Assembly (NCBI RefSeq): GCF_009914755.1
Contig: NC_060940.1
DNA from: the human T2T-CHM13v2.0 reference genome, Homo sapiens
Strand: one strand, 5' to 3'
Length of the DNA: 64,000 nucleotides
Below the pieces are notes generated by a model that was not told the DNA's origin, made no database searches, and saw only the letters and a program-made list of their open reading frames with translations. Position 1 is the first letter of the stretch. The number at the start of each line of letters is the position of its first letter. Positions 31,954 to 37,750 of this stretch are shown in pieces. Position numbers and translations under genes: made by a program.

Positions 31954-32581
31954 GTATTATTTTACTACCTCTACTTTTAACACACTTCTTGTACTTTTAA
32001 AGATCTAGAGGCTGGGTGAGGTGGCCCACACCTGTAATCCCAGCATTTTGGGAGGTCGAGGCAGGAGGATTGCTTGAGCCCAGGAATTGGAAACCAGCCT
32101 GGGCAACACAGTGAGACCCCATCTCCAGAGAAATTTTAAAATTAACCAGGTGTAGTGATATATGCCTGTGGTCCCAGCTACTTGGGAGGCTAAGACAGGA
32201 GGATCCCTTGAGACCAGTAGTTTGAGGCTGCAGTGATCTCTGATCAAGCCACTGGGCAACAGAATGACACCCTGTCTCACACAAAAAAAAAAATCTAGAA
32301 AGGCTTGATGTTTCAAACAATGGCTTAATTTTGCCTACTATATATACAGTAGTATTAAATCAACTTCACATATAACAATGGTTATATCTGAAAGTGGCTT
32401 CTAATCAGGAACAGTCTGGTCTATAATTCATTTCTCCCAATTTTTTCTTTCTGAAACCAATCCAATGAATGAGATGTGTTTTTACAATTTCATTTCCAAT
32501 AGTCAGTATCAAAAGACAGCCTAAGTACTTTAACGCTAAATGAACAAAATGTGTTAGTCTACTGCCACTATTTTTGTCATT

Positions 32582-33800
32582 ATTGGGGAAACAGAATTAA
32601 AAACAAAATCTTCTCCCACAAAAGTAATCTCCCAGAAATCCTCTTCACAAAAGTAGTAGAGAAAGAAAAATAGTTTTATTAGTATTATTATTGAATATGC
32701 ATTAAGAAAGAACATGATATGTGGCAATCCACAAAGAGATTGCAAAGATAGAAAGAAATCTTTTTGTTTTCGAAATGGAGTCACACTCTGGCCCAGGCTG
32801 GAGTGTGGTGGCATGATCTCGGCTCACTGCAACTTCTGCCTCCCGGGTTGAAGTGATTCTCGTGCCTCAGCCTCCGAGTAGCTGGGACTACTGGCACGTG
32901 CCACCACGCCAGGCTAATTTATGTATTTTTAGTTGAGATGGGGTTTCACCATGTTGGCGAGGCTTGTCTTGAACTCCTGACCTCAGGTGATCCACCCACC
33001 TTGGCTTCCCAACATGCTGGGATTACAACCATGAGCTACCGCGCCCGACCTTTTTTTGTTTTTGTTTTTGTTTTCGTTTTTTGGGGTTTTTTTGTTGTTG
33101 CTTTTTTTTTTTTTTTTTTTTTTTTTTTGAGAAAGGGTCTCACTCTGTCACCCAGGCTGGAATGCAGTGGTACAATCACATAGCTCACCGCAGTCTTGAC
33201 CTCTCAGGCTCAATCCATCCTCCTACCTCAGCCTCCCAAGGAGCTGGGAGTGCAGGGGACATGCCATCACACCCAGCTAATTTTTGTATTTTTTGTAGAG
33301 ACGGTGGGGGGTCTCACCATATTGCCCAGGCTGGTCTGGAACTCCTGGGCTCAGGTGATCCACCCACCTTTGCCTCCCAAAGTGCTGGGATTACAGGCAT
33401 GAGCCACCGCACCCAACCAAGAAAGGGATACATTTCACCCTTTTTTCCTGGTATATTTTGTGATGTCAAGCAGATGCAATCTATGACATACATATTCTTA
33501 TGATAAATGATAACTTGTCCCCAAGTAAGAGGAGTTGACAGCATCATTCATCACATATAGTCCATCTTAAATGTATCTGTTAATTGGGGGTGGTCTTTGT
33601 TTGCTAGTTGGCTTTATCCAAAGAAGAAACAGATGTTTCATATCTCTAAGACAGGAGGCAGTTTTGCAGCTTGGAGCAAGATACCCACTGAAGTTAGACT
33701 CCTACCCTCCCACAAAAGTAAGAGTTAGGAAAACTATCTCCCTTGAAGATTTTATTTCAAAGAGGTAGCTGCCATGTCCTTGAGAAAAACATTCCTGGCT
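32582..33800 (-). mobile_element. MER67-like ERV1 LTR inside the NORAD-like copy, itself carrying two Alus (32760-33417)
   Basis: GGCAATCCACAAAGAGATTGCAAAGATAGAAAGAAATC...GTCCTTGAGAAAAACATTCCTGG. Confidence 0.6.
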
Positions 33801-34017
33801 GTATATACAGTATAGCAAAGTTTAAAGAAGTGCAGCTACTATACCAGGCAACAAGTCATCTGAAATCTTGTAGTACACACTAGCAAAACATCTTTTGCAA
33901 TTTCTTCCCTCTAATCTCCCTCAACCAAATGAGCAAGTACCAAGGTGGTTTGAACAATTAACAAACAACTTGCAACTATTCCATTGCAAAATAATATTTC
34001 CCATCAATTTTTAAAAA

Positions 34018-34306: not shown

Positions 34307-37135
34307 TTTTTTTTTTTTTTTTGAGACAGAGTCTCGCTCTGTCATCCAAGCTGGAGTGTGGTGGTACGATCTTGGTTTACTGCAATCTCCCTTTCCCGGG
34401 TTCAAGCGATTCTCCTGCTTCAGCCTCCCCAGTACCTGGGATTACGTGTCCACCAGGACACTGGCTAATTTTTGTATGTTTAGTAGAGATGAGATTTTGC
34501 CATGTTGGCCAGGTTGGTCTTGAACTCCTGACCTCAGGTGATCCACCCACCTTGGCCTCCCAAAGTGCTGGGATTACAGGCGTGAGCCACCATGCCCAGC
34601 CAGGCCCATCAATTTTTAAAAACTATCTACAAAGTGTTTTACTACTACCTCTAATTTCTTTTTTTTTTGTTTTGTTTTGTTTTTGAGTCGGAGTTTTGCT
34701 CTGTTGCCCAGGCTGGAGTGCAGTGGTGCGATCTTGGCTCACTGCAAGCTCCGCCTCCCAGGTTCACGCTATTCTCCTGCCTCAGCCTCCTGAGTAGCTG
34801 GTACTACAGGTGCCCGCCACCATGCCCAGCTAATTTTTTATGTTTTTAGTAGAGATGGGGTTTCTCTGTGTTAACCAGGATGGTCTCGATCTCCTGACCT
34901 CGTGATCCACCCGCCTTGGCCTCCCAAAGTGCTGGGATTACAGGCATGAGCCACCGCGCCCAGCCCTCTAATTTCTTTTTTAAAAAAAATTTAGGGAACT
35001 ATCAGCCTAACGGATATCTCTAATTTTAGATACATCAAATACTTGAAAATATCCAGAAAGACTAGATGTTTCAAGTAAGAGCTTACTTACCTGTCCACTA
35101 GATATATAAAACTGCTAAATAAAACTGCACACACATAGCAATAGTTATAATAAGGTGTCTTCTAAATATGAACATTTTGGCATAGATATTTCAAAAAATA
35201 CTTATCAATTGTATATACAGGGAGAAATAAAATTCACACAGAGAGCATAGTTATAATATGAAGATGACTTCTAAATATGACCAGACTGGCGTAGAAGCTT
35301 CTTCTCTTCCTCCTCAGGCCTTTTTTTTTTTTTTTTTCCTTGAGACAGTCTTGTGCTGTCGTCCAGGCTAGAGTGCAGTGGCATGATCTCAGCATTTTGC
35401 AACCTCCGCCTCTGGGGTTCAAGCGATTATCCTGCCTCAGCCTCCCCAGTAGCTGGGACTATGGGCACGTGCCACCACTCCCAGCTAATTTTTGTATTTT
35501 TAGTACAGACGGGCTTTCACCATGTTGGCCAGGCTGGTTTCAAACTCGCAACCTCAGATGATCCACCTGCCTTGGCCTCCCAAACAGGTGGGATTACAGG
35601 CATGAGCCACCCTGTCCCATGTCTTCTAAATCATTGAACAAAAATGGACGTGTGTTGCTTCTACTGGTGGTCTAACAATTCCATTTCAAAAAGTTCTTTC
35701 CAAAAGACATTTCTTTCCTGCAATTAAAAAAAAAATGGCCATTTACAAGTTATGTGATTTTCCAGGTCTACTTTATCATGTCAGCAACCTTTCTATCTAG
35801 AAGGCCTAGATGTAGCAAACGTTTTATTTATTTATATTTTTATAGAGACAGGGATGTCACTTATTGCCCAGGCTGGTCTCAAACTTCTGGCCTTAAGCGA
35901 TCCTCCCACTTCAGCAAATTTTTTTTTCTATTGTACATCCTCCCACTTCAGCAAATTTTTTTTTCTATTGTACAAAAATTTTACAAATAAAAAAGTTTTA
36001 GGCCGAGCACAGTGCCTCACACCTGTAATCCAGCACTTTGGGAGGCCCAGGTGGGGGGATCAACTTAGCTCAGGAGTTCAAGACCAGCCTGGGCAACGCT
36101 GTGAAATCCTATCTCTACAAAAAAAATACAAAAATTAGCTGGGCATGGTGGCACACGCCTGCAGTTCCAGCTACTTAGGAGGCTGAGGTGGGAGGATCAC
36201 CTGAGCCTGGGAGATCAAGGCTGCAGTGAGCCATGTTCACACCACAGCACTCCAGCCTGAGTAACAAAGTGAGCCCCTGTCAGGGGGAAAAAAAGAAAAA
36301 AAGTGTTTTCTTTTAAAAGGTGTGAGAGGCGGCCGTGGTGGATTACTCCTGAATTCCAAGCTATTCTGGGGGCTGAAGCAGGAGGATTGCTTCTGGATAG
36401 GAGTTTGAGACCACCCTGGGCAACACAGCAAGACCCTCATCTCTACAAAAAATAAAATATTAATCACACCACTGCACACTAGCCTAGGTGACAGAGTGAG
36501 ACCATGTCTCTAGAAAAAGATAAATGTAGGCGAGGGTGTGGGGGGTCGAGCCTGTAATCCCAGCACTTTGGGAGGCCAAAGTGGGAGGACTGCTTGAGCC
36601 CAGGAGTTGGGAGACCAGCCTGGGAAACACAGGAGGATGCTGTCTCTATCTAAAAAAAAAATAAAAATGCCGGGCGCGGTGACTCACGGCTGTAATCCCA
36701 GCACTTTGGGAGGCTGAGGCAGGTGAATCACGAGGTCAGCAGACTGAGACCATCCTGGCTAACACAGTGAAACCCCGTCTCTACTAAAAATACAAAAAAA
36801 TTAGCTGGGCGTGGTGGCGGGCACCTGTAGTCCCAGCGACTCGGGAGGCTGAGGCAGGAGAATGGCGTGAACGAGGGAGGCGGAGCTTGCAGTGAGCCGA
36901 GATCGCGCCACTGCACTCCAGCCTGGGCGACAAAGCGAGACTCCGTCTCAAAAAAAAAAAAAAAAGCCTGGGGTGGTGGGGCGCACTTATTGCCCCACCT
37001 AATCGGGAGGCTGAGATGCGAGGATCACTTGAATCTAGGAATTTGAGGCTGCTGTGAACCTCAGCAGTGATTGTACCACTGCACTGCAGCCTGGGTGACA
37101 GAGGGAGACCCTGTCTCAAAAAAAGAAAAAAAAAA
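34307..37135. mobile_element. Alus inside the NORAD-like copy: 34307-34601(-), AluY 34657-34964(-), 35321-35618(-), 36001-36300(+), 36328-36520(+), AluY 36669-36965(+) nested in AluJ 36529-37135(+); also 32010-32292(+)
   Basis: Alu consensus; TSD CCTCTAATTTCTTTTT for the 34657 copy. Confidence 0.9.
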
Positions 37136-37199
37136 TGTGGGATGTGGAGAGTGGAGATCAATTTGTTCTTATATGCACAGGACTTCTACACTGCCTCCT

Positions 37200-37750
37200 A
37201 AATCTCCCCGAAGGATGCTGGGCACTTCTTTCTCTTGGCCCGGTGCTGTTAAGTTTTTCTACCGTTTCTGGCTTCCACTGCCAGTACCATGCACGGAAGG
37301 TTGCTAACGGTTTTAACGGTTCTAACAGTCGCTGGGCCGCTCATTTCCCGGCCTGGAAGGCCTTTGTCATTATTGTTCCATCTCAGGGGCACTGAGCGGC
37401 AACTCCAAGTCCCGGATCCGTGCAGCTCGTTGGCCAGTCACTGCTCCACACAGCTTTGCCTTCTGGGCCAGAGGTCTCAATAGGGCCTTCCAGCACCGCC
37501 ATTTTTGTCGCCCTGCCTTGCCCGCCACCGAAAGATTCCACGTCCTAGGTGGCCTGGCGAGTGTTTGCTGCCGTCCAGCCGATATGAGTCGAAGAGTCCA
37601 GACTCGGGGAGGCTACTGGGGCCATCAGGGCGTGGAGCCTGCGGGGTCTGTTGCTTCTAGGCCTGGACTGGGCCAGTGGGTGCAGCCATCCCTGGGCCTC
37701 AGCTGATACAGGTTCCTGGGGCACAGGCCTTGCCCACTCTGGAGCTCTAT
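37200..37750 (-). promoter_or_regulatory. CpG-rich promoter-like 5' segment of the NORAD-like copy, with YY1 and tandem MYB motifs
   Basis: About 25 CpGs in 37200-37650 by manual count. CCGCCATTTT (YY1) at 37496-37505. TAACGG at 37305 and 37314, TAACAG at 37323. Confidence 0.5.

What the first reader, a model, noticed from the sequence alone, without database searches (positions are those of the whole stretch)
31954..37750. Hidden NORAD-family lncRNA copy reassembled from between transposons
Seen: after removing TEs, eight blocks form one minus-strand unit with a GC-rich head and AT-rich diverged repeats. The motif TCTAGAA.GC.TAGATG recurs at ~32294, 35052 and 35797; CTTCTAAAT..GA at ~32398, 35159, 35268 and 35623; TTACTACCTCTA-like at ~31962 and 34643. 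From recall of NORAD, the blocks are colinear with its 5' part at roughly 70% identity (estimate by eye). Known: NORAD is an unspliced cytoplasmic lncRNA built of ~300-nt repeat units that sequesters PUM1/PUM2, and it has multiple genomic copies. Inference: an ancient retrocopy of NORAD or a paralog, useful for reconstructing ancestral repeat units and possibly still transcribed. This is the best candidate for an undescribed system in the window.
Basis: partly seen in the sequence, partly recalled or inferred. Interest (0 to 1): 0.85.

Follow-up and report, generated by a model that had tools for sequence, protein, structure and literature searches.

The report
Ancient broken NORAD lncRNA pseudogene
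This stretch is a very old, decayed and transposon-riddled copy of the NORAD long noncoding RNA, one of dozens of such dead copies in the human genome, so it is real but ordinary.

Summary
Window 31956-37733, minus strand, carries eight blocks colinear with NORAD RNA nt 114-3071 (nhmmer E 8e-30 to 2e-4). Identity is 71-86% per block and 1309 of 1728 aligned bases overall. Reversed and shuffled NORAD controls gave 0 hits. About ten Alu pieces and one older repeat separate the blocks.

The copy lacks NORAD nt 1-113, the promoter, nt 1178-2292 (an out-of-register junction at 35185) and everything after nt 3071, so no poly(A) tail or target-site duplication can be read.

Its nearest relative genome-wide is NORAD itself. 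It is the most diverged of the 22 copies compared. I estimate roughly 100 My old.

CpGs have decayed and Pumilio sites are kept no better than a fair null predicts. RefSeq lists no gene or regulatory element there.

NORAD has at least 36 other copy loci here, and print already notes a "large number" of NORAD pseudogenes (PMC4947167). This is a new, unannotated member of a known kind and almost surely inert. It is not an undescribed system.

The parts
37127..37733 (-). Block 1: GC-rich head, homologous to NORAD RNA nt 114-811 (decayed CpG island part)
   Evidence: nhmmer E 6.6e-21. 408/573 identical, 10... see total: 9 of 59 NORAD CpGs kept in this block. CpG o/e 0.51 against 0.86 in NORAD. No similarity of NORAD nt 1-113 to 37734-37850 (71 of 500 shuffles reach the score).
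35606..35826 (-). Block 2: NORAD nt 811-1037. Holds an intact copy of the repeat-unit hairpin motif at 35796-35812.
   Evidence: nhmmer E 3.2e-22. 165/219 identical. Motif with 0 mismatches.
35185..35322 (-). Block 3: NORAD nt 1033-1177 (repeat core 'A1'). UGUANAUA site starts at 35219 on the minus strand.
   Evidence: nhmmer E 9.8e-16. 114/136 identical. Best match is unit A1, 0.75 against at most 0.69 for the other units. PRE.
35019..35185 (-). Block 4: a repeat core best chained as NORAD nt 2293-2450. The unit assignment is ambiguous. The junction with block 3 at 35185 is out of register, so NORAD nt 1178-2292 are missing.
   Evidence: nhmmer E 1.2e-16. 125/156 identical. Units A2, A3 and A4 tie at 0.74. 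Alignment.
34596..34652 (-). Block 5: NORAD nt 2445-2501, with a UGUANAUA site starting at 34631
   Evidence: nhmmer E 2.4e-4. 46/57 identical. PRE.
33718..34017 (-). Block 6: NORAD nt 2475-2725. Homology is convincing only down to about 33800. UGUANAUA site starts at 33809.
   Evidence: nhmmer E 2.4e-15. 181/243 identical. The alignment tail is poor. From about 33800 downward an unrelated old repeat begins.
32290..32589 (-). Block 7: NORAD nt 2712-3028 (repeat core 'A4'), with a UGUANAUA site starting at 32348
   Evidence: nhmmer E 8e-30. 228/295 identical. Best match is unit A4, 0.81 against at most 0.76. The best non-self match in the whole genome is NORAD, 72%.
31956..32005 (-). Block 8: NORAD nt 3023-3071, the last detectable homology. 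No poly(A) follows.
   Evidence: blastn 86.7% over 45 nt, E 2.5e-8. nhmmer. 42/49 identical. Sequence read.
35827..37126 (.). Insertion between blocks 1 and 2: a cluster of Alu elements and pieces
   Evidence: Alu-type blastn hits at 36959-36669, 36259-36010 and 36729-36550. SRP-like and Alu-derived miRNA-family hits at 36136-36283, 36530-36648, 36669-36951 and 36966-37119. Soft-masked intervals.
35323..35605 (-). Alu inserted between blocks 2 and 3
   Evidence: blastn 35330-35610 to the Alu inside NORAD, 78%. SRP-like hits at 35376-35617.
34653..35018 (-). Alu inserted between blocks 4 and 5
   Evidence: blastn 34675-34958, 85.6%. SRP-like hits at 34683-34964.
34018..34595 (.). Insertion between blocks 5 and 6: an Alu (34313-34600) plus other masked repeat
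32590..33717 (.). Insertion between blocks 6 and 7: an old interspersed repeat not soft-masked by RefSeq (33422 to about 33800, and probably 32590-32782), itself carrying two Alus (32806-33049, 33127-33417)
   Evidence: Whole-genome search with 33422-33800 gave 302 first-look candidates. 40 were scored, at 71-78% identity and about 335 nt each. Alus.
32006..32289 (+). Alu inserted between blocks 7 and 8
   Evidence: blastn 32211-32021. SRP-like hits at 32011-32127 and 32145-32280.

Best explanation
This is an ancient, dead, NORAD-derived copy, most likely a processed pseudogene. A NORAD transcript was reverse-transcribed and inserted on the minus strand between GRIN2A and ATF7IP2, probably by LINE-1 machinery in the germ line (inferred). 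This happened on the order of 100 million years ago, when the multi-unit repeat array of NORAD already existed.

The copy begins at NORAD nt ~114. It later lost, or never had, nt 1178-2292 and everything after nt ~3071. It has since decayed neutrally to about 75% identity. An old interspersed repeat and then about ten primate Alu insertions split it into eight blocks.

It has no promoter of its own and is very probably not an RNA gene today.

Shown: the homology, colinearity, extent, divergence rank, interruptions, and the absence of promoter homology and of annotation.
Inferred: the RNA-mediated origin, the age in years and the lack of transcription.
For: Homology and colinearity:
- Eight colinear same-strand blocks to NORAD nt 114-3071, E 8e-30 to 2.4e-4.
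- 0 hits for reversed NORAD and 5 shuffled NORADs.
- 1309/1728 identical, K2P 0.29.

Homology stops inside the transcript:
- A query of 2 kb of NORAD upstream sequence plus nt 1-900 matched only from nt 114 on. All other hits were Alus.

Relationship to other copies:
- All 18 non-self genome matches of block 32290-32589 lie in NORAD or NORAD-copy loci. The best is NORAD itself at 72%, so this is not a generic transposon and not a copy of another pseudogene.
- It is closer to NORAD (0.740 and 0.773 identity) than to any of the 21 other copies (at most 0.736 and 0.770; to the older copies 0.65-0.75).
- It has the longest path to NORAD in two regional ML trees, 0.43 and 0.47. The next longest are 0.33 and 0.22. 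The topology is ladder-like, as expected for one master gene.
- Two of its three repeat cores match their positional NORAD unit best.

Neutral decay:
- 10 of 69 NORAD CpGs are kept. CpG o/e is 0.51 against 0.86.
- 2 of 6 PREs are kept in register, where a fair null predicts 0.235-0.257 per site, P = 0.43-0.48.

Nested repeats and annotation:
- Nested Alus and an old repeat family interrupt it.
- RefSeq has no gene or functional element in 31954-37750.

Literature (passages read):
Against: The classical retrocopy hallmarks cannot be seen.
- The 3' 2.27 kb of NORAD is absent. No poly(A) tract follows nt 3071: the sequence runs straight into another masked repeat at 31945. No target-site duplication can be defined.
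- A 3'-truncated copy is atypical for LINE-1-mediated retroposition, so a later deletion or rearrangement must be assumed.
- NORAD is unspliced, so intron loss gives no information.

With a lenient count (+-3 nt), 4 of 6 PREs survive against a 9.9% background. That is nominal P 0.0012 and the lowest P of the 22 copies. It fades to P 0.03-0.04 against the fairer null, and that comparison mixes a lenient count with a strict background.

Transcription could not be tested. The age in years rests on a recalled neutral rate.
Confidence: 0.88

Rival explanations
1. A DNA-level (segmental) duplicate of the NORAD locus rather than an RNA-mediated copy.
For: No poly(A) tail or target-site duplication is visible, and the 3' end is missing. 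The RNA route is therefore not directly proven.
Against: Homology begins at transcript nt 114. No match to 2 kb of NORAD upstream sequence was found, although the adjacent 5' region is still detectable at E 1e-22. At least 36 other dispersed, mostly 5'- or 3'-truncated copies show that NORAD spreads as RNA, and this is described in print (PMC4947167).
Confidence: 0.05
2. A still or formerly functional NORAD paralogue: a weakly transcribed Pumilio decoy like HCG11.
For: Four perfect UGUANAUA sites remain on the sense strand, at 35219, 34631, 33809 and 32348. With +-3 nt tolerance, 4 of 6 NORAD PREs are kept against a 9.9% background, nominal P 0.0012. One repeat-unit hairpin motif is intact at 35796-35812.
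Against: In strict register only 2 of 6 PREs are kept. Against sites where NORAD itself stayed stable, the expectation is 0.235-0.257, giving P 0.43-0.48. Two of the four sites survive only because a TGTGTATATA context tolerates a shift. There is no promoter and no first 113 nt, the CpG island has decayed, about ten Alus and another repeat lie inside, and RefSeq has no transcript or element.
Confidence: 0.04
3. The remnant of NORAD's progenitor gene, that is, the parent rather than the child of the chr20 locus.
For: It is the deepest and longest branch among the copies compared. The trees are unrooted and were only midpoint-rooted.
Against: Its content is a subset of NORAD: nt 1-113 and 3072-5343 have no counterpart. 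Two of its three repeat cores match specific NORAD units, so the array was already differentiated. Neutral decay accounts for the long branch.
Confidence: 0.02
4. Chance or low-complexity similarity, or a transposon family that NORAD merely shares.
For: The repeat part is AT-rich.
Against: There are eight colinear blocks with E down to 8e-30, including the non-repetitive GC-rich 5' region. Reversed and shuffled queries gave 0 hits. Genome matches of a block are confined to NORAD loci, 18 of 18 non-self.
Confidence: 0.01

Closest known systems
NORAD (LINC00657), chr20:37766598-37771940, minus strand
   Same: Source sequence. The blocks follow its order from the GC-rich 5' region through the repeat units. 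The unit landmarks are recognisable: the CAUAUUUAGAAGA start, the UGUANAUA Pumilio site and the CAUCUAG...CUAGA hairpin.
   Different: Only nt 114-1177 and about 2293-3071 of 5343 are present. Identity is about 75%. It has 4 UGUANAUA sites where NORAD has 15. There is no promoter, CpGs have decayed, transposons interrupt it, and it is unannotated.
HCG11 (chr6:26390105-26395792), the expressed NORAD-derived lncRNA
   Same: Also a dispersed copy of NORAD.
   Different: HCG11 is young and nearly full length: NORAD nt 1-5339, 93-95% identity in the two regions compared, and it includes NORAD's internal Alu. It keeps 12-13 of 14 PREs. It is annotated, and reported as expressed about 20-fold lower than NORAD (PMC4947167). 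The window copy is not derived from it: 0.713 and 0.756 identity to HCG11 against 0.740 and 0.773 to NORAD.
Other old NORAD pseudogenes, e.g. chr13:42.17 Mb (L013) and chr16:64.53 Mb (L012)
   Same: Unannotated, diverged NORAD copies. L012 is likewise split into at least 7 blocks over 6.8 kb. None of the 36 loci carries a NORAD-pseudogene name in RefSeq.
   Different: The window copy is more diverged than all 21 compared. K2P to NORAD is 0.32 and 0.27, against at most 0.28 and 0.18 for the others. None of the others shows the 1178-2292 gap.

Membership tests
NORAD-derived sequence (copy of the NORAD transcript region) | Statistically significant, colinear, same-strand similarity to NORAD, including its non-repetitive 5' part | tested here: met
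   Eight colinear blocks, E 8e-30 to 2.4e-4. 0 hits with 6 control queries. NORAD is the best non-self genome match.
Processed pseudogene (retrocopy) | Similarity confined to the transcribed region, with no promoter or flank homology | tested here: met
   At the 5' side homology starts at nt 114. 2 kb of upstream NORAD sequence matched nothing but Alus. The 3' side cannot be judged because it is missing.
Processed pseudogene (retrocopy) | 3' poly(A) tract | tested here: inconclusive
   The copy ends at NORAD nt ~3071 and abuts another repeat at 31945. NORAD's 3' 2.27 kb has no match in the window, so the place where a tail would be is absent.
Processed pseudogene (retrocopy) | Flanking target-site duplications | tested here: inconclusive
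   The true 3' boundary is lost, and the 5' boundary lies about 100 nt from an Alu. No target-site duplication can be defined.
Processed pseudogene (retrocopy) | Loss of the parent's introns | not testable with these tools
   NORAD is unspliced (PMC4947167), so the criterion carries no information.
Functional NORAD-family lncRNA gene (NORAD, HCG11) | Own promoter or start site and evidence of a transcript | tested here: not met
   No NORAD promoter homology and nt 1-113 absent. CpG o/e 0.51. No RefSeq gene, CAGE cluster, promoter or enhancer in 31954-37750. RNA data themselves were not available.
Functional NORAD-family lncRNA gene (NORAD, HCG11) | Dense array of conserved Pumilio response elements kept by selection | tested here: not met
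   4 UGUANAUA sites against 15 in NORAD. Retention is 2 of 6 in register, P 0.43-0.48 against a null from NORAD-stable sites. The lenient count of 4 of 6 is only marginal.
Functional NORAD-family lncRNA gene (NORAD, HCG11) | Continuous unspliced transcript body | tested here: not met
   About 4 kb of Alus and another repeat interrupt about 1.8 kb of NORAD-derived sequence.
Segmental (DNA) duplicate of the NORAD locus | Homology extending beyond the transcript into flanking DNA | tested here: not met
   None upstream. No NORAD 3' or downstream match in the window.

The most novel reading that the evidence does not exclude
The copy may be the oldest surviving NORAD duplicate, made close to the birth of NORAD in early placental mammals. 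It may have served for a time, or may still weakly serve, as a second Pumilio-binding RNA. On this reading that is why 4 of its 6 alignable Pumilio sites are still readable after about 25% sequence decay. It would then also be a dated fossil of the early repeat array.
Probability: 0.04. Interest if true: 0.4.

Novelty: new member of a known kind. Interest (0 to 1): 0.15.

Why it matters
It matters little for biology. It adds one unannotated, very old locus to the known crowd of NORAD pseudogenes.

Practical value:
1. It is one more site that can attract multi-mapping NORAD, PUM-CLIP or probe signal, although at about 75% identity the risk is small.
2. As the most diverged of the 22 copies compared, with two of three repeat cores matching specific NORAD units, it gives independent sequence support that NORAD's multi-unit array existed before this early retroposition. 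That agrees with the published estimate of at least 100 My.
3. It shows that a tool-less reader can correctly reassemble a lncRNA pseudogene from between transposons.

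Tried and rejected
1. Plain blastn of NORAD and HCG11 against the unmasked window was swamped by Alu hits from the Alu inside NORAD. I redid it with repeats masked and with nhmmer.

2. I looked for the missing 3' part of NORAD (nt 3072-5343) anywhere in the 64 kb. There was no hit better than E 0.57.

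3. I looked for NORAD nt 1-113 and the promoter upstream of 37733. Nothing was found.

4. The BLAST-type whole-genome search with the GC-rich head found only itself. At this divergence that tool is blind, so its silence about other old copies means little. For the same reason the window copy is missing, where 40 of 66 candidates were scored.

5. PRE-retention as a sign of selection: the strict test was not significant (P 0.19). The lenient test was nominally significant. I rejected it as evidence after building a fairer null.

6. 'Fewer repeat units because ancestral NORAD was shorter': rejected. The junction at 35185 joins the hairpin region of one unit to the start of another, out of register. 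Other old copies span nt 1178-2292.

7. Rfam has no family hitting the blocks. All 36 hits at E<=0.01 are Alu-type (SRP-like, mir-1268, mir-3135, mir-1285), with only 5- and 12-nt edge overlaps with the blocks.

8. Literature: searches 'NORAD'+'HCG11'+'pseudogene' (22 papers), 'NORAD'+'retrocopies' (1 paper, listing only) and 'NORAD pseudogenes' (4 papers). None of what I read names this chr16 locus. Supplements were closed and may hold lists of NORAD pseudogenes.

Full report
**What is there.**
The window is chr16:10,354,001-10,418,000 of T2T-CHM13. It is intergenic, between GRIN2A (ends 10,217,640) and ATF7IP2 (starts 10,421,735). RefSeq has no gene there, and 51% of the window is soft-masked.

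I fetched NORAD (L001, chr20, minus strand) and HCG11 (L002) from the same reference. A first blastn was dominated by the Alu that sits inside NORAD. It already showed non-Alu, same-orientation, colinear hits in 31,961-37,228.

I then masked repeats and ran nhmmer. Eight colinear minus-strand blocks emerged:

| NORAD RNA nt | Window | E-value |
|---|---|---|
| 114-811 | 37733-37127 | 6.6e-21 |
| 811-1037 | 35826-35606 | 3.2e-22 |
| 1033-1177 | 35322-35185 | 9.8e-16 |
| 2293-2450 | 35185-35019 | 1.2e-16 |
| 2445-2501 | 34652-34596 | 2.4e-4 |
| 2475-2725 | 34017-33718 | 2.4e-15 |
| 2712-3028 | 32589-32290 | 8e-30 |
| 3023-3071 | 32005-31956 | blastn 2.5e-8, |

Reversed NORAD and five locally shuffled NORADs gave 0 hits at E<=10. 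Per-block identity is 71.2-85.7%. Overall it is 1309 of 1728 aligned bases (75.8%), with 286 gap columns and K2P 0.29.

Its three motifs are at the stated places. On the RNA strand they are landmarks of the NORAD repeat unit: the unit start, the long hairpin and the following A-rich stretch (alignments; unit motifs described in PMC4947167, passages).

**What separates the blocks.**
The gaps are Alu elements or Alu pieces. They show as blastn hits to NORAD's own Alu and as SRP-like and Alu-derived miRNA-family hits in Rfam. The positions are 32011-32280, 32806-33049, 33127-33417, 34313-34600, 34683-34964, 35376-35617, 36010-36283, 36530-36648, 36669-36951 and 36966-37119.

There is also an older interspersed repeat that RefSeq does not mask, at 33422 to about 33800 and probably 32590-32782. 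It gave 302 first-look candidates genome-wide; 40 were scored, at 71-78% identity.

The sequence just 3' of the copy is also repeat: a masked piece at 31833-31945, an Alu fragment at 31634-31782, and another unmasked old family at about 31190-31615 (2416 first-look candidates, 40 scored, 67-79% identity).

**What is missing.**
- NORAD nt 1-113 have no counterpart: the local score of 8 was reached by 71 of 500 shuffles.
- 2 kb of NORAD upstream DNA matches nothing but Alus.
- Nt 1178-2292 are absent. At 35185 the hairpin region of one unit is joined directly to the start of another, out of register. I therefore read this as a deletion or a template jump, not as an ancestral shorter array. Other old copies span that interval. 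Because the middle repeat core matches units A2, A3 and A4 equally (0.74 each), the exact limits of the deletion are uncertain.
- Nt 3072-5343 have no match anywhere in the window (best E 0.57).
- No poly(A) tract follows the last block.

**Relation to other copies.**
A whole-genome search with NORAD nt 1-3644 returned 81 matches in 37 loci (NORAD plus 36 others) at 67-97% identity. Only 40 of 66 candidates were scored, and the window copy was not among them. None of the 36 loci is named as a NORAD pseudogene in RefSeq. One is HCG11.

Searching the genome with block 32290-32589 gave 19 matches: itself and 18 in NORAD or NORAD-copy loci. NORAD and the young chr12 copy were best, at 72%. The GC-rich head found only itself with that tool.

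I chained 21 other copies and the window copy onto NORAD coordinates and compared two regions, nt 114-1177 and nt 2293-3071.
- The window copy is nearer to NORAD (0.740 and 0.773 identity) than to any other copy.
- It is the most diverged from NORAD: K2P 0.32 and 0.27. The next most diverged are 0.28 (L013) and 0.18 (L011).

ML trees (FastTree GTR+gamma, midpoint-rooted) used 17 of 23 rows for the first region and 14 of 23 for the second. Rows with less than 600 or 400 nt of coverage were dropped and are listed. The trees are ladder-like. The window copy is the deepest and longest branch, with a path to NORAD of 0.43 and 0.47.

Two of its three repeat cores match their positional NORAD unit best: A1 at 0.75 against at most 0.69, and A4 at 0.81 against at most 0.76. 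The unit array was therefore already differentiated when the copy was made.

**Age (inference).**
At sites where NORAD itself stayed stable (at least 70% of at least 3 older copies agree with it), identity is 0.738 in the head and 0.841 and 0.809 in the repeat parts. By my arithmetic this gives Jukes-Cantor distances of 0.18-0.32 on the copy's lineage.

With a recalled neutral rate of about 2.2e-9 per site per year, that is roughly 80-150 My. This fits the published statements that NORAD is absent from opossum and that its units duplicated at least 100 My ago (PMC4947167, passages). It also fits the nested old repeat.

**Is it alive?**
Nothing says so.
- There is no promoter homology.
- The CpG island has decayed: 10 of 69 NORAD CpGs are kept, 13 are now TG or CA, and o/e is 0.51 against 0.86.
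- About 4 kb of foreign repeats lie inside it.
- RefSeq has no gene, CAGE cluster, promoter or enhancer in the interval. The window's only three functional elements lie at 4819-13433.

Pumilio sites:
- NORAD has 15 UGUANAUA sites. The blocks have 4, starting at 35219, 34631, 33809 and 32348 on the minus strand.
- In strict register, 2 of 6 alignable PREs are kept against a 13.4% background (P 0.19).
- Allowing +-3 nt, 4 of 6 are kept against 9.9% (nominal P 0.0012, the lowest of the 22 copies).
- Two of those four survive through a shift inside a TGTGTATATA context.
- The background is depressed by NORAD's own changes. At NORAD-stable sites it is 0.235-0.257, giving P 0.43-0.48 for 2 of 6 and 0.03-0.04 for 4 of 6.

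I take this as compatible with neutral decay. It remains the only hint for the bolder reading.

**Known or new.**
[quoted passage not shown] It reports four human copies that are more than 90% identical over more than 4 kb, and that only HCG11 is expressed. [quoted passage not shown]

My searches found no paper naming this chr16 locus. Supplements were closed and might list it.

**Verdict.**
The object is an ancient NORAD pseudogene, most likely retroposed, 5'-truncated by about 113 nt, internally deleted, lacking its 3' 2.27 kb and shredded by transposons. It is a new member of a known kind and of low interest. It is not an undescribed system.

Noticed in passing
L010:4499-4509, L019:1892-1908, L020:1009-1024 (NORAD copies on chrX:77.69 Mb, chr4:77.12 Mb, chr13:27.76 Mb): Three older NORAD copies join NORAD nt ~3643 to ~3958 with only 9-15 nt between. 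They therefore lack the Alu that sits at NORAD nt 3644-3959. HCG11 aligns straight through that interval. The Alu thus entered NORAD after those copies were made and before HCG11, which gives a relative time marker for NORAD retrocopies.
   Followed up: partly
window 33422-33800 (and probably 32590-32782): An old interspersed repeat that RefSeq soft-masking misses. It gave 302 first-look candidates genome-wide; 40 were scored, at 71-78% identity and about 335 nt. It lies inside the NORAD copy and itself carries two Alus. The family was not named, as no Dfam tool was available.
   Followed up: partly
window ~31190-31615: Another unmasked old repeat family lies directly 3' of the NORAD copy. It gave 2416 first-look candidates; 40 were scored, at 67-79% identity. 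It may be connected with the loss of the copy's 3' part.
   Followed up: partly
L012 (chr16:64,532,828-64,539,622): A second NORAD copy on the same chromosome. It is likewise broken into at least 7 blocks over 6.8 kb, covers NORAD nt 85-3479, and is unannotated.
   Followed up: partly
L002 (HCG11): HCG11 keeps 13 of 14 alignable Pumilio sites (+-3 nt) against a 60.8% background for other 8-mers, P 0.009. The strict count is 12 of 14, P 0.067. This is a weak hint of constraint, or of the robustness of these motifs.
   Followed up: no
window, whole 64 kb: Alu density is very high. 51.4% of the window is soft-masked, and the Alu inside NORAD alone drew well over 100 blastn hits across the window.
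   Followed up: no
window 4819-5140, 11228-11522, 13232-13433: These are the only RefSeq functional elements in the window: one candidate enhancer (a CRISPRi target) and two silencer/MPRA fragments. All are far from the finding.
   Followed up: no
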